Source of the DNA: Harriotta raleighana
Taxonomy: Eukaryota
Direction of reading: 5' to 3'
Length of the DNA: 64,000 nt
Assembly (NCBI GenBank): GCA_050575255.1
Contig: JBNZDD010013726.1
Coordinates: 8,136,959 to 8,200,958, forward strand
Positions 30,001 to 64,000 of this stretch are shown here, one piece after another. Each line of letters begins with the position of its first letter. Positions within the stretch are counted from its first letter, which is position 1. A program made the position numbers.

Positions 30001-33000
30001 TAGTTCTAATACCCAATAAGCTATTAAAACCTGGTTGACTTAATTTTTTCTAGTTAAACTCAGAATTTAATTAATCTGTAATATCTATGAGCTGGTAAAA
30101 CATGAATTGCATGAATATCTCACACTGGCTCTATAACTTGTTCGGGACAATATGACTGAGATGAATTGCTTACAAAGTATTTTTGCTTTTGTGTCAGAAA
30201 CAAATCAACTCAAACAATGGTTTAGCTTTATATTCCCAAGGTTTATCTTTTTGGATGAAATCCAAAAGCTTTTTAACAAAAATTATAAACTCAACATATT
30301 TTCAAAGACTTATACCTTGGTGAGTGATAATAATCACATTAGATCACAGACTGTCACAAACCCATGCTATGATTGGCCAACATCTGTGCTCCATCTGACA
30401 GCAGATTAGTATTCTTCACACATTTATCCTCTATTTCACAGTCATCTATCTGTACAGCTGGCCTTTACAAATACATACCAGTACATTGACATTTACTCAA
30501 TTACCAACCTTTCAAAATGTAAACCTTGAACCTATTTATGAAGGTGTAATTCTTCTGAAACAATGAACTAATAAATGTGCAACACAATAGATTTTAGTTT
30601 AAATATAGAATTGAATGCATAATGTCATTTTTCAGACAATTTCCGTTTGTGCGCTTTTAAATCCAATATTTCCAAATTGTGCAAAACAGTGATAAGTAGA
30701 CGTCAAAGATAATGATCTCACCAGATACTCTATTTCATAGATCTATCATGCCTGCTTTTTCTTTCACAGACTTGTTGCTAAATTTTTTAATGTCTGCTAG
30801 AAATTGCTTGTAATTCTTATTGTGAACACAAATCAGAACATAAATGATAAGAGGTAAGATACAAAACCATTAAAATGAACTAAAATATGACAGTGAGATT
30901 TTAGCCCTATGTCAATACAAATAGTATGGTGGCAAATATAAATTATAAGCAGTGAAATCAATAAACACATTGTAAGCCCAATCATTGGCTTTACAATAAA
31001 AAAAAGGTTACCATTGCTGTGGAAAATGAAGACTGAATGTCCTTGTCTAAAAGAGCACGAGATTCTTGTCTGCCTTTATTTAATACAATTATTCTATTCA
31101 ATGTGTCTGTTTCCAGTCTGATTAAAATAGCTTGTGCAGTAGAATTTCAATGCAGAATCAGAAAATCTTTCAGGAATATAGGGTTAAAAATCACACATCA
31201 AACTGTATAACAGATCTTTGAAAAAAACAGATGAACCTATTATTTTTACTGCCATCTAACTTCATAAACTACAGTTTACAATGCCACTGAAATCATTTTT
31301 TGAAAATTAAAGGAATCCCACAGACCACAAAAAAATTACACTGAATTCTTTACACTTAATGCAACTATAAATGTGATTAAATTCATTCTTTTATGTCCTT
31401 TTGTGGAATGGGCTGGCTCTGAAATAATTTAGTTTTTTTTATTACCAATTACAACTTAAATACAATAAAATGAATGGTAATAACTAAGTGTTTTTTTTGC
31501 AAAAATAGGAAAACTTTTCTATTCGACGAACAGGCATATACTCACCATTAGTACTGCAAAGTTACTGAAGCGCATACATTGAATGGTAGTAATATTGCTT
31601 GCAGAACCTGTTAGGTGGCACCCATTAGCACACCAACCATCCAAAAGGTCAAAATCCCAAAATGCTGCAGTGGGATCTGCACCAAGTACAAAGTGCCTCA
31701 GAACAATAGTGATGGGTTTAGTGAGGTTCACAAAGCTGCACCCATCTGCAGAAACAAATTACATTAGGTAAATGGAGTGGAAAAGCTGATGGCTGAATGC
31801 TGTGTACACAGATCTGCAATGTGTTACACTCAAAATGCACGAGATAAAATAAAAATTAACTTGTCTGTTGAAATATCCACATTAAAAACTTACACCTGAA
31901 CGTACTCTAGAACCATAATACAATTACACTTGAATTTAAATGTTCAATTCCGACTTTTCCAAAGTATTCTGTTAAAATGTGCCATATAGAAAAAAAAATG
32001 CTGTCGGACTGTTTGTAGTGAAAAAAACTGCTTTGGTTTCAGCATCTGCTCTTCCAAACTTTACATAATTGATATAGCCTCAATGCATCTCATTGCATGT
32101 TATATAGCTATTACATATGGAGATTGAGATCACGACTGTATTCTGGATGTGGTTGAGGAATTTAAGAATCTTTCCTTCTTGCTTCCACCCACCCCCCAAA
32201 AAAAAACCTTCACAAAAAACGTGGAAGATTAAACATAGAGCCCACATCTATCAATTTCAGAAATGCAGGCTATTTCTCTGATTGTATTCATATATTCTGT
32301 TGCATTGTAAAATACTGCCTCAGTGGCAGGCATGAATACAGAAATCTTCCAGCATGGACAGGATTTTTGAATAAATTGTTCATTGCCAAATGCAACCATT
32401 CATAAAGATAGAAACTGACATTGGAAACTATGAAGCAGCTAAAAATCACTCTAGAAAATACAAACATAGCAATGAATTGAAGGTGAATAACACAACCAGC
32501 AAAATTTTAGCCTCATGCTGCAGTTTTCAAATATCTGAAAGGTAGCATACATAGAAACTGATCTTGAATATTTTCATTTTCATGTCTATCAAAGTAAAAA
32601 TAAAATCTCTAGTACATGCATTGAAACATCAATTTTGTCAAGCTAATGCGGATCATATAAACCACAGAAAGAGTTAACAATTTGTCTTTCAAATAAAAGT
32701 AAAATCTTACCTATTTTAATAAAGACAACAGGAGTCGAAACACACTTGCGTTTCCCATCATCAGCGAGGTTTGACGAGTTTCCTGTCCTGGGAAAGAGTT
32801 TTCCATTCCGAAATACAATAAATTGTAGCTTGCAAGACGAGTTGTCAACAGTGTGTAAGGTTGGGAAATGAGTGAAAATTGCTGGTGGCAACTGAACTGA
32901 TGCCACTGCTATAGTGTTCTGTAGAATTAAAGCAAAGAAGCGAGCAAGACAAATGTGAGTCACAACATTGTTGTTTTCAATATTTTCCTTTGCAGCAGGA

Positions 33001-61800: not shown

Positions 61801-64000
61801 TGAACCCAGGTCTCTTGCGTGTAGGGCGAGTGCTCTGACCACTGAGCTACCGGACTCCACCAGTGATCTTAAAACCACTGGTATCGGCCATCTATATATC
61901 AGTAATGCACTGTTTCAAAATCTCAACCAAACTGAAGTACACTTTCTAATTACAGTACTTGGCACACATTACAGGAAGCTTCCTTCCAGGAAGAGAGAAA
62001 AACCCTCTTGAGATACAAGCAACACCATAGACACTGATATACTGTAATTTCTGATTCAAATTATTCCTCTAAAAATCACATCAAATATTAATTTAACAGA
62101 CAATTTATTTATCAAATTAGAATCATATCACCCAATCCATCTGGGTAAATTGGCATTGCCCTGGAATTTAATTACCCTGAACTGGATGTGTAAATTGTTG
62201 GGCTATGTAAGACAACCTATTGAATAGAATTTCAGCAAAGCGGAATAGCATTTTCTAACAAAGTTCTGACGACATGAAACCTATTCTCTGATGTAACCAG
62301 GCACACCAAATGGGCCTTTTGTTTTTCTCATTTGAATTCTGGGCTTCACCAATCTGCCAGCTCCTTCCACTCTGCAGGCAATGGCCTGCTCCGTATTCCC
62401 TGTCCCCGTGTTCCCTGCCCGTTCCACTATCGGTGGTCAGGCCTTCAGCCAGTCTCTCCACACACATCTGGAACTGTACCCCCAGAGCACCGCCACTTTG
62501 TCTCCTCCCTTCCTCCTCTCAAAGTCCATCTCAAGACCTACCTCGGGTCCAAATCCTGGAATGTCCAGCACCTTGGGACGTCCTCCTGACATGAAAGGCA
62601 CTACACAAATGAAACTGAAGTGAAGAAATGAGCTATTCACATGCAATCTGTGGTTGTTTCTGGCTGTTGTAGATGGTTTGCAAAGTACATTTTAGTTTGA
62701 GATCAATCCTCATTATGTCTCATTCTGTGATTTTGTGGGACACGTACCTGAAATCCCCTTTATTGTTGCTGATTCGCTCAGCAGGACAGTATGGTGCGGA
62801 TGTCTCTAAGACCACAATTTCCACCATCTTGGAACTGTTCCCTCGGGAGGTAGTAATCAAGCATTCCCACTCTCCTGTTGCGGCCACGTCAATGTTGGAC
62901 AGGATCAGCTCACTGAATGATTTTTATTTTTTTTAATGAAGAAAAAAAAAAGCTGTTTTGTTACATCTATCTTTTGTCAATTTCCGATTGCTGCTGCTGA
63001 GAATCAAACAGACAACGAGTACAGAACTAGGTTATTTCGCAACAGGCTTCAACCGATGGCCCTCACTTTGTTCGCAGCTTCAAACATGCTCTGCATCTCC
63101 CTTGTCGATGATACAGAAACAAAATGCACAGAAGCATGGAAATGACCCGTTTAATTTATGACCTTCTGTTGGTAAATTACACGTTTTAATCTCACTATAT
63201 TTTTCATTTTGGTGAAGAAATGTCACTGTGGTTTGTAGGGGTTAAAGGGCCATAATTGTTTAGCCAGTAGGGGCTAATTTAAACAGGAACTCTATATGAA
63301 AGCTTTGGTTCAAACATTCCTATCAATCAAACAGCAGATTGAGCTGGCAATATTTCTGACTGCTGTTTCACCTTGGCTGAAGACATATCGCATCACAAAC
63401 CAGATTTATAGTAACAATATCCTTTGGAGATCTGGTGATGCTTATCATTTTTAAAAAGATCTTTTTCTTCTGATCCCAGAGACAGAATCTTGCGGGATAA
63501 AATATGATTGAATAGGGTTTCATTACATCTTATAGAATTTATTAGGATCCTAGTTCTCTTCCGCCAATTTTCTTCCCTTTCCAGGTCACACGCCAGCACA
63601 CATCCATCTTTAACTGAACAATCTCCGTGTGGATCTTTATCGCTACCTCCATCAATGTCTTCACACGCTCAAGCGTACGGAGGGGATTCAACCAGGGCAC
63701 GTCGATAAGGTGAGTTTGTCCTCCCTCTTGAGATAGAAATGCTGATAACCACTAAGAATTGCCAACAAGCAACCTTCGCAGTAAACTGATAAAGTGTGTC
63801 AACTGGAGCAAACAAGACGGAATGATAGGCAGCTCTGGGACTCGAATCATACAATGGCTTCATCCTGATAAGGAAACGCTACACTCTTTGAACTACACTC
63901 AGCTTCAACTTATTTATAAAAATGAAACCAAAATGTTGCTGGAACATGTCACTCTGTACTAGTCCCAAATCTAGGAAGAACACATAGAGATATTGCTCCA

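What the first reader, a model, noticed from the sequence alone, without database searches (positions are those of the whole stretch)
31546..62912. ADGRA1/GPR123 orthologue that keeps a complete Ig-HRM-GAIN/GPS ectodomain
Established: mammalian ADGRA1 is the one adhesion GPCR with no GAIN/GPS domain and almost no ectodomain, whereas ADGRA2 (GPR124) and ADGRA3 (GPR125) carry LRR-Ig-HRM-GAIN. Seen: seven in-phase, stop-free exons encoding Ig, HRM, GAIN-A/B and GPS splice onto a 7TM and tail that are diagnostically ADGRA1-like. Inference: this is the ancestral full-length ADGRA1, the ectodomain was lost later in other lineages, and this receptor may still bind extracellular partners as ADGRA2 does with RECK in WNT7 signalling. 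I cannot tell whether this state is already annotated.
[Added by the scan's program, not by the reader: the finding's places include an assembly gap (unread letters, written N; its length is only estimated) at 47495 to 47890, 48815 to 48922. Whether the letters on both sides are continuous or in frame is not known: test that first.]
Basis: partly seen in the sequence, partly recalled or inferred. Interest (0 to 1): 0.78.

Follow-up and report, generated by a model that had tools for sequence, protein, structure and literature searches.

The report
Full-length ADGRA1 gene of a chimaera

Summary
On the minus strand, seven stop-free exons (62912-31546) run in compatible phase into five 7TM/tail exons that end in ETTV-stop at 2416. 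All splice sites are canonical AG/GT.

The contig is not human. It is 94.6-100% identical per exon to Callorhinchus milii ADGRA1.

Both long N gaps lie in the 18.8-kb intron between exons Ee and Ef. No residue of any compared orthologue is missing there.

The last exon sits inside the ADGRA1 clade, together with placental short ADGRA1 (100/100). ADGRA3 and ADGRA2 fall outside it. In every per-exon tree the nearest rows are ADGRA1 ectodomains. A tree of public ectodomains excludes A3 and A2.

A fold of the matching part of the public C. milii protein gives a HormR+GAIN structure.

The state is already annotated. RefSeq XP_007894520.1, "probable GPR123", 1304 aa, uses exactly these exons. PMC11697300 reports 84 ADGRA1 homologues with a GAIN domain.

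The GPS reads R-F|S instead of H-L|T, so self-cleavage is unlikely.

The finding is correct and well read, but ordinary.

The parts
62748..62912 (-). Exon Ea: C-terminal half of the Ig domain and the first Cys of the HRM. Enters in phase 1 and leaves in phase 2.
   Evidence: 96% identical to C. milii RefSeq residues 296-349. No Pfam hit of its own.
58318..58513 (-). Exon Eb: hormone-receptor motif (HRM/HormR).
   Evidence: Pfam HRM 25.2 bits against a cut-off of 26.2. In the model of the public protein this stretch forms the small strand domain before the helices.
57202..57351 (-). Exon Ec: GAIN subdomain A helices.
   Evidence: Helices 76-128 of the model.
54121..54282 (-). Exon Ed: GAIN subdomain A helices.
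51775..51996 (-). Exon Ee: end of GAIN-A and first strands of GAIN-B.
47495..47890 (.). Assembly gap (396 N) inside the Ee-Ef intron.
   Evidence: No orthologue residue is unaccounted for between Ee and Ef.
48815..48922 (.). Assembly gap (108 N) inside the Ee-Ef intron.
32711..32918 (-). Exon Ef: GAIN-B strands. Donor ATAG|GTAAGA, phase 1.
   Evidence: 98.6% identical to RefSeq residues 594-662.
31546..31745 (-). Exon Eg: GPS motif and Stachel strand (...C-M-R-F|S-N-F-A-V-L-M). Donor ATG|GTGAGT, phase 0.
   Evidence: Pfam GPS 37.3 bits. Starred A1 clade 100/99. Motif alignment.
18319..18446 (-). Exon Eh: linker DLKTVL... and TM1. Mouse ADGRA1 begins at the homologue of this exon.
   Evidence: The mouse N-terminus is quoted in PMC13178472.
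17649..17772 (-). Exon Ei: TM2.
   Evidence: 100% identical to RefSeq.
12403..12548 (-). Exon Ej: TM3.
4341..4436 (-). Exon Ek: TM4.
2416..3649 (-). Last exon El: TM5-7 and cytoplasmic tail, ending ...KNETTV plus stop (PDZ-binding-type end).
   Evidence: Pfam 7tm_2 21.1 bits against a cut-off of 20.6. Tree. 98.5% identical to C. milii.

Best explanation
The window is the 3' part (12 of the coding exons, 3031 coding bases) of the ADGRA1 (GPR123) orthologue of a holocephalan fish. The species is Callorhinchus milii or, more likely, a close relative. The gene encodes a full-length adhesion GPCR. The LRR and the first half of the Ig domain lie upstream of the window. Inside it are the rest of the Ig domain, HRM, GAIN-A, GAIN-B with GPS, seven helices, and a long tail ending in ETTV.

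Shown: the exon structure, the A1 orthology of the 7TM/tail, the A1 affinity of the ectodomain exons, and a HormR+GAIN fold for the near-identical public protein.

Inferred: this is the ancestral architecture of ADGRA1. Placental mammals lost everything upstream of the TM1 exon, and their protein now starts at the homologue of exon Eh.

Inferred mechanism: the GPS reads R-F|S, without the His of the canonical H-L|T/S site. The receptor therefore most likely stays uncleaved. It would act as a one-piece receptor whose LRR/Ig/HRM/GAIN region senses an outside partner and passes this on to the 7TM without shedding. Output would go through G proteins (mouse ADGRA1 activates several, PMC13178472) and through PDZ scaffolds on the ETTV end.
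For: Exons, phases and splice sites.

Species and prior annotation:
- The best hit of the last exon is C. milii 'Adhesion GPCR A1' (99%).
- RefSeq XP_007894520.1/.2 (1304 aa) uses the same 12 boundaries, at 94.6-100% identity per exon and 23 mismatches in 1004 residues.

Orthology: one search gives a clade of 21 rows (20 A1 plus the window) at 100/100, A3 as 15 rows at 100/99 and A2 as 3 rows at 100/99.

Ectodomain:
- In one search (public rows only) A3 at 100/100 and A2 at 100/99 exclude the chimaera row.
- In the seven per-exon trees the four nearest rows are always A1. Exon Eg is in a starred A1 clade.
- Identity to shark/ray A1 is 68-93% per ectodomain exon, against 41-59% to the same species' A3.

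Fold: pLDDT 82.6, pTM 0.82, six helices followed by strands. The best 8 PDB matches are all aGPCR extracellular regions with GAIN, three of them (two entries) HormR-GAIN crystal structures, at E 6e-19 to 1e-7.

GPS motif. The canonical HL|S/T is as stated in PMC12059339.

Placental loss.
Against: - No transcript evidence was available, so the Eg-to-Eh splice is supported only by gene models and conservation.
- Synteny could not be tested, because the window holds this one gene only.
- The A1 ectodomain group has 84/90 support, not starred. Five of the seven per-exon trees do not resolve an A1 clade (few columns).
- For exons Eb and Ec the median identity to bony-vertebrate A1 (51%, 58%) equals that to A3 (52%, 58%).
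- The fold was made on a part of the public C. milii protein, not on the window's own exons.
- Non-cleavage is inferred from one missing residue. ADGRA3, with S-L|S, has been suggested to be cleaved (PMC12059339).
Confidence: 0.93

Rival explanations
1. The ectodomain exons are conserved relics or belong only to a minor isoform. The main product would then be a short receptor started from an internal promoter before the TM1 exon, as in placental mammals.
For: Public models of several non-mammals include short isoforms, for example Ambystoma X2 at 757 aa with 7tm_2 only. A mormyrid ADGRA1-like paralogue starts with M plus DFENAL..., at the same exon boundary. The Eg-Eh intron is 13 kb, which leaves room for a promoter.
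Against: The seven exons are stop-free, in phase and have canonical splice sites. They are 68-93% identical to shark/ray orthologues, which means purifying selection on the protein. No CpG-island-like stretch lies in the Eg-Eh intron; the only one in the window is at 43201-43900, in the Ee-Ef intron. A short extra isoform would not remove the long one.
Confidence: 0.05
2. Assembly chimera: ectodomain exons of a neighbouring paralogue (ADGRA3 or ADGRA2) were scaffolded, across the N gaps, onto an ADGRA1 7TM.
For: Two estimated gaps lie inside the finding. NCBI currently names the C. milii protein 'A3'.
Against: The gaps lie between Ee and Ef, not between the GPS and TM1 exons, and exons on both sides have A1 rows as nearest relatives. 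The species' real ADGRA3 is a separate protein with its own ectodomain and 7TM (P0318). The same architecture appears in models from many separate assemblies of sharks, rays, ray-finned fishes, amphibians, reptiles, birds, marsupials and platypus.
Confidence: 0.01
3. The gene is not ADGRA1 but a fish-specific ADGRA3-like duplicate, as the automatic names 'A3' and 'A3-like' of shark and teleost models suggest.
For: Names given by NCBI to many of the best hits.
Against: In the last-exon tree these 'A3-like' rows (Scyliorhinus, Mobula, Narcine, Polypterus, Megalops) fall with placental, marsupial, reptile and amphibian ADGRA1 at 100/100. Species with both genes (Callorhinchus, Xenopus, Rhinatrema, Microcaecilia, Dermochelys, Heteronotia, Notamacropus) put one gene in each clade. 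The first RefSeq version was named 'probable GPR123'.
Confidence: 0.01

Closest known systems
Callorhinchus milii ADGRA1 gene models (RefSeq XP_007894520.1 'probable G-protein coupled receptor 123' / .2 'adhesion GPCR A3', 1304 aa; UniProt A0A4W3JUC1 and isoforms)
   Same: Same gene and the same 12 exon boundaries. Per-exon identity is 94.6-100%. Architecture is LRR, Ig, HRM, GPS, 7tm_2.
   Different: There are 23 of 1004 residue differences, shared against both RefSeq versions, so the window is probably a close relative rather than the reference fish. The UniProt representative P0001 uses another Ef/Eg junction, which is closed by a TAA in this window.
Placental-mammal ADGRA1/GPR123 (short form)
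   Same: Orthologous 7TM and tail. The ETTV end is shared. The mouse protein begins MTQW plus [18 protein letters not shown], which is the homologue of the start of exon Eh (PMC13178472).
   Different: No LRR, Ig, HRM or GAIN. The named human 1279-aa isoform matches 0 of 7 ectodomain exons and 5 of 5 7TM/tail exons.
ADGRA3 (GPR125)
   Same: Same domain order and the same exon-by-exon collinearity (P0318). ETTV end (PMC12059339). Non-canonical GPS.
   Different: Separate clade at 100/99-100/100. 44% identity in the last exon. The GPS reads S-L|S rather than R-F|S.
ADGRA2 (GPR124), the WNT7/RECK co-receptor
   Same: Same domain order. In the ectodomain tree A2 is sister to A1 (92/95, not starred).
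   Different: 31% median identity in the last exon. GPS reads L-L|G. Nothing here tests RECK or WNT7 binding.
HormR-GAIN modules with solved structures (BAI3 4dlo, BAI2 8oek, Gpr126 6v55)
   Same: The predicted fold of the public chimaera protein aligns over about 400 columns, at E 6e-19 to 1e-16.
   Different: 13-19% sequence identity, and other aGPCR subfamilies. The TM-scores of 0.5-0.65 reflect differing inter-domain angles and loops.

Membership tests
Adhesion GPCR, subfamily A (ADGRA) | Secretin-like seven-helix domain | tested here: met
   Pfam 7tm_2 on the window's last exon alone scores 21.1 bits against a cut-off of 20.6. The public model P0001 scores 59.8 bits.
Adhesion GPCR, subfamily A (ADGRA) | GAIN domain with GPS motif directly before TM1 | tested here: met
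   Pfam GPS scores 37.3 bits against a cut-off of 22.5 on exon Eg. Eg splices in phase 0 to the TM1 exon.
Adhesion GPCR, subfamily A (ADGRA) | Hormone-receptor motif before the GAIN domain | tested here: inconclusive
   Pfam HRM scores 25.2 bits on exon Eb, just under the 26.2 cut-off, and 26.3 bits on P0001. The fold search finds HormR-GAIN structures, but that was done on the public protein, not on the window's letters.
Adhesion GPCR, subfamily A (ADGRA) | N-terminal LRR block and Ig domain | not testable with these tools
   Only the last 54 residues of the Ig domain (exon Ea) lie in the window, and they have no Pfam hit of their own. The LRR lies upstream of base 64000. Public C. milii models have LRR_8 at 59 bits and I-set at 19 bits, under the cut-off.
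Adhesion GPCR, subfamily A (ADGRA) | C-terminal ETTV (PDZ-binding-type end) | tested here: met
   The last exon ends ...KNETTV followed by a stop. That this end binds PDZ proteins is taken from PMC12059339 for ADGRA3 and was not tested here.
ADGRA1 (GPR123) orthology group | 7TM/tail groups with placental ADGRA1, apart from ADGRA2 and ADGRA3 | tested here: met
   a 21-row clade at 100/100 that includes Fukomys and Dipodomys ADGRA1. A3 is supported at 100/99 and A2 at 100/99.
ADGRA1 (GPR123) orthology group | Conserved gene neighbourhood with ADGRA1 of other vertebrates | not testable with these tools
   The gene fills the window. No other gene was seen, and no eukaryote genome collection was on hand.
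ADGRA1 (GPR123) orthology group | Absence of GAIN/ectodomain (the textbook trait of human and mouse ADGRA1) | tested here: not met
   The ectodomain is present. This trait describes placental members only: platypus and possum models match 7 of 7 ectodomain exons. It does not define the orthology group.
Self-cleaving aGPCRs (canonical GPS H-L|T/S) | His at -2, Leu at -1, Thr/Ser at +1 | tested here: not met
   The window reads R-F|S: Ser at +1 is present, His is absent and Leu is replaced. The consensus is as stated in PMC12059339. Cleavage itself was not testable.

The most novel reading that the evidence does not exclude
The loss of the ADGRA1 ectodomain would be one event on the placental stem, not a mammalian trait. 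It cut the gene exactly at the intron before the TM1 exon. It followed a period of fast ectodomain change that is still visible in marsupials (stem branch 0.56 in the ectodomain tree against 0.099 in the last-exon tree). The same cut arose a second time in a teleost ADGRA1-like paralogue that starts M plus DFENAL... at that exon boundary. If so, full-length, probably uncleaved ADGRA1 of chimaeras, sharks or frogs would be a practical bait for finding the still unknown partner of this orphan receptor.
Probability: 0.5. Interest if true: 0.35.

Novelty: already known. Interest (0 to 1): 0.15.

Why it matters
ADGRA1 is an orphan brain receptor. Papers up to 2026 describe it as the one adhesion GPCR without a GAIN domain (PMC13178472, passages read). 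Most vertebrates, monotremes and marsupials included, keep the complete LRR-Ig-HRM-GAIN form. That is useful for choosing a species in which to look for ligands, and for dating the loss. But it is database knowledge. The elephant-shark model has carried these exons under the name GPR123 since its first RefSeq version, and PMC11697300 counts 84 ADGRA1 homologues with a GAIN domain in 47 species. This window adds one more closely related fish and no new kind of thing.

Tried and rejected
- Pfam on single exons found nothing for the three GAIN-A exons or for Ef, because the domain is split over exons. Orthologue collinearity and a fold of the public protein were used instead.
- Per-exon trees were mostly too short to resolve clades. 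Only Eg gave a starred A1 clade. They are reported as nearest rows only.
- The public model P0001 was first used to set exon borders. Its Ef/Eg junction gives an in-frame stop in the window and was dropped in favour of the junction shared by 8 of 8 other proteins.
- The representative library gave mostly fragments and unnamed entries. Only named ones were used, after look-ups.
- The placental representatives P0122/P0282 have N-termini that look like an out-of-frame reading of the TM1 exon. They were used only for the last-exon tree.
- The PDB sequence search with the public protein was swamped by LRR proteins. Only ADGRL3 8jmt covered GAIN-B to 7TM.
- Pfam on four intronic ORFs (39232-39774+, 43151-43621+, 47891-48220-, 38495-38929-) found nothing.
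- dN/dS, synteny and transcript support could not be done: no orthologous DNA, no flanking genes and no reads were on hand.
- No binding prediction was run, since no binding claim is made.
- Literature searches found no paper that dates the loss to placentals. Supplements (for example Supplementary Table 1 of PMC11697300, which may list the species) were closed.
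Full report
WHAT THE WINDOW IS

The 64-kb window has 36% G+C and low CpG. It holds 16 runs of N: 14 single letters, one of 396 (47495-47890) and one of 108 (48815-48922).

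The 418-aa stop-free piece at 2419-3672(-) was searched against longer proteins. Of 3412 candidates, 535 hit at E <= 0.001, and 120 were listed. [quoted passage not shown]

The contig is therefore from a chimaera (holocephalan), not from a human. None of the rules for human contigs came into play.

EXONS

tblastn of P0001 placed residues 281-1298 on the minus strand in 12 ordered pieces. I then fixed the borders from splice sites, phase and orthologues:

| Exon | Coordinates |
|---|---|
| Ea | 62912-62748 |
| Eb | 58513-58318 |
| Ec | 57351-57202 |
| Ed | 54282-54121 |
| Ee | 51996-51775 |
| Ef | 32918-32711 |
| Eg | 31745-31546 |
| Eh | 18446-18319 |
| Ei | 17772-17649 |
| Ej | 12548-12403 |
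| Ek | 4436-4341 |
| El | 3649-2416 (stop included) |

- All 12 exons have AG before them, and the 11 with a following intron have GT after them.
- The phases of neighbouring exons fit, and none has a stop.
- Together they hold 3031 coding bases, 1303 of them in the seven ectodomain exons.
- The finding's end points and its 31546/18446 junction are exact.

All searches, trees and comparisons used the exons one by one.

One public model disagrees at one junction. P0001 (UniProt/Ensembl) joins 32744 to 31799. In this window that reading holds a TAA at 31761-31759 where P0001 has Q. The junction 32711|31745 (ATAG|GTAAGA ... CTGCAG|AT) is used by both RefSeq versions. It is also supported by 8 of 8 other proteins laid on the window: 7 A1 orthologues and the species' ADGRA3.

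THE GAPS (tested first, as asked)

Both long N runs lie in the 18.8-kb intron between Ee and Ef, 2.8 kb and 14.6 kb from the nearest exon. In the RefSeq protein, Ee ends at residue 593 and Ef starts at 594. In all 8 proteins the two pieces abut as well.

So no known exon is hidden in the gaps and reading frame is not an issue. Only the intron's length, and any unknown cassette exon, stay open. No N lies in an exon. I did not look up or fill the gaps.

DOMAINS

Pfam on ten single stop-free pieces:

| Piece | Family | Bits | Cut-off |
|---|---|---|---|
| Eg | GPS | 37.3 | 22.5 |
| Eb | HRM | 25.2 | 26.2 |
| El | 7tm_2 | 21.1 | 20.6 |

- Five of the ten pieces had no family at all.
- Two had only weak, unrelated hits under threshold.

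The helical GAIN-A part has no model in this Pfam copy. The precomputed lists carry PF26588 for these proteins, but no call showed me its name.

To test whether the HRM-GAIN region is complete I folded a 415-residue part of the public C. milii RefSeq protein P0407. That part corresponds to the end of Ea through the start of Eh, and the window's exons match it at 94.6-98.6%. An alignment of 60 named relatives was supplied. The model has mean pLDDT 82.6 and pTM 0.82. It shows a small strand domain, six helices, then a strand sandwich whose last strand is the ...NFAVLM stretch.

Foldseek against the PDB gave 9 matches at E <= 0.001. The best 8 are all extracellular regions of adhesion GPCRs that hold a GAIN domain: Gpr126 6v55, BAI2 HormR-GAIN 8oek, BAI3 HormR-GAIN 4dlo (two chains), CELSR1 8vy2, GPR110 8hc0, and CD97 9mqr and 8ikj. 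Their E-values run from 6e-19 to 1e-7. This speaks for the public protein. For the window it is an inference from near-identity.

WHICH PARALOGUE

I assembled 47 named proteins:
- 20 ADGRA1-labelled rows, among them two placental short forms, three marsupials, and shark and ray models that NCBI calls 'A3' or 'A3-like';
- 15 ADGRA3, among them C. milii's own, P0318;
- 3 ADGRA2;
- 3 cyclostome proteins;
- 6 invertebrate deuterostome proteins.

I aligned them and added the 12 window exons as separate fragments. They fell on columns 509-2261 in order and abutting.

Last-exon tree (423 columns, IQ-TREE with a mixture model):
- The window sits with P0001, then sharks and rays, inside a 21-row ADGRA1 clade (100/100) that holds the placental short forms.
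- ADGRA3 (100/99) and ADGRA2 (100/99) are separate.
- Species with two genes in the panel put one gene in each clade.

Ectodomain tree from public rows only (438 columns, no window rows and no joined model):
- A3 (100/100) and A2 (100/99) exclude the chimaera row.
- The 17 A1 ectodomains form one group (84/90, not starred) that follows the species tree.
- A2 is its sister (92/95).

Seven per-exon trees with the window's own exons (50-72 columns each):
- The four nearest rows are A1 rows in 7 of 7 trees.
- The fifth nearest is an A2 row for Ec.
- Only Eg gives a starred A1 clade (17 A1 plus the window, 100/99). The rest are unresolved.

Identities agree but are not uniform. Each ectodomain exon is 68-93% identical (median) to shark/ray A1, against 41-59% to the same species' A3. 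For Eb and Ec, however, the median to bony-vertebrate A1 (51%, 58%) equals that to A3 (52%, 58%).

IS IT KNOWN?

Yes.

- The cluster of P0001 holds seven C. milii entries. They include RefSeq XP_007894520.1, 'PREDICTED: probable G-protein coupled receptor 123', 1304 aa, and its later version .2, renamed 'adhesion GPCR A3'. These use exactly the 12 borders found here.
- Full-length models of about 1300 aa named ADGRA1 are listed for gar, caecilians, frogs, lizards, turtles and marsupials. A platypus model of 1142 aa keeps Ig, GPS and PF26588.
- PMC8584163 and PMC6900090 (passages) treat ADGRA1 as a one-to-one orthologue across vertebrates, judged on the 7TM, and do not discuss its ectodomain in the passages shown.

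WHERE THE LOSS HAPPENED

Searching a placental ADGRA1 (P0122) against proteins of 1055 aa or more listed 120 proteins. The only placental entry was the named human 'isoform 1' (1279 aa), with 7tm_2 as its only precomputed domain.

| Protein | Ectodomain exons matched | 7TM/tail exons matched |
|---|---|---|
| Platypus P0425 | 7 of 7 | 5 of 5 |
| Possum P0059 | 7 of 7 | 5 of 5 |
| Named human isoform 1 | 0 of 7 (at E <= 1) | 5 of 5 |

The mouse protein's start, as printed in PMC13178472 (MTQW then [18 protein letters not shown]), lines up with the first residues of exon Eh ([18 protein letters not shown]). The loss is thus placental, and it cut at the intron before the TM1 exon. My three literature searches did not turn up a paper saying so. 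That is a weak negative.

HOW IT PROBABLY WORKS

The invertebrate relatives read C-x-H-L|T-N-F. Most A1 orthologues read H-F|S/G/N. The window and C. milii read C-M-R-F|S-N-F-A-V-L-M. A3 reads S-L|S and A2 reads L-L|G. The canonical site is HL|S/T (PMC12059339).

Without the His, self-cleavage is unlikely. The hydrophobic F-A-V-L-M core is kept. I therefore expect an uncleaved receptor in which the ectodomain modulates the 7TM without shedding, with G-protein output and PDZ scaffolding at ETTV. All of this is inference.

SPECIES

The window differs from both RefSeq versions at 23 of 1004 residues: 14 of 432 in the ectodomain and 9 of 572 in the 7TM/tail. That is too many for the reference fish itself. 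It points to a close relative or a very divergent haplotype.

LEFT OPEN

- Transcript proof of the splice.
- Synteny.
- dN/dS.
- The LRR and signal-peptide exons upstream of base 64000.
- Cleavage and partners.

Noticed in passing
window 31759-31799 (-): The UniProt/Ensembl model P0001 of C. milii joins 32744 to 31799 and reads Q where this window has an in-frame TAA (31761-31759). RefSeq and 8 of 8 other proteins use 32711|31745 instead, so P0001 looks mis-spliced here.
   Followed up: yes
window 579, 11621, 12109, 19014, 24062, 41466, 49341, 49455, 49974, 56367, 56542: 11 of the 14 single N letters sit at or near the boundary between two near-identical (93-100%) tandem copies of 61-199 bases. 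This looks like contig ends joined without collapsing their overlap, so these 'tandem repeats' are probably assembly artefacts. None touches an exon.
   Followed up: partly
window 43201-43900: This is the only CpG-island-like stretch of the window (G+C 0.53-0.58, CpG o/e 0.62-0.74). It contains C-rich 28-34-base repeats and lies in the Ee-Ef intron. Whether it is a promoter, a repeat or nothing was not decided. Pfam found nothing in its ORF.
   Followed up: partly
window 61785-61856 (-), 16030-16099 (+), 22099-22161 (+): Three tRNA-like matches just above Rfam's threshold (29-37 bits), all in introns. Next to the first lies a repeated ORF-like motif (...IQSIHFTVYSVK.FETS...) that recurs near 36.4, 11.4 and 9.7 kb. 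These are probably tRNA-derived SINE copies.
   Followed up: no
window 47891-48228 (-): Directly beside the 396-N gap lies a stop-free piece reading ...[30 protein letters not shown].... From memory this resembles the conserved tail of a fish retroposon family. Pfam found nothing. The gap probably sits in a repeat.
   Followed up: partly
public proteins P0143/P0294 (Paramormyrops, Brienomyrus 'ADGRA1'/'A1-like', 626-627 aa): A second, fast-evolving teleost ADGRA1-like gene (end branch 1.13) encodes a short protein that starts M plus [18 protein letters not shown]. This is the same exon boundary at which placental ADGRA1 starts. It may be an independent loss of the ectodomain.
   Followed up: partly
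public proteins P0059, P0060, P0061 (marsupial ADGRA1): The marsupial stem branch is 0.56 in the ectodomain tree but 0.099 in the last-exon tree. Their GPS reads P-H-W|G-H-F-A-V-L-M. The ectodomain seems to have evolved fast in the lineage nearest to the one that lost it.
   Followed up: no
public proteins P0122/P0282 (Fukomys ADGRA1 isoforms): Their N-termini (...PRGIPAPCGVCMHCGHAAVPPCLCYHLHH...) resemble the out-of-frame reading of the TM1 exon seen in this window at 18420-17908 ([30 protein letters not shown]...). These models are probably frame-shifted at their start.
   Followed up: no
window exon Eg and C. milii proteins: Both the window and C. milii lack three residues (G-H-G) that all other A1 and most A3 rows have between ...DFDLLD and GW... 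in GAIN-B. This is a holocephalan-specific deletion in a loop.
   Followed up: no
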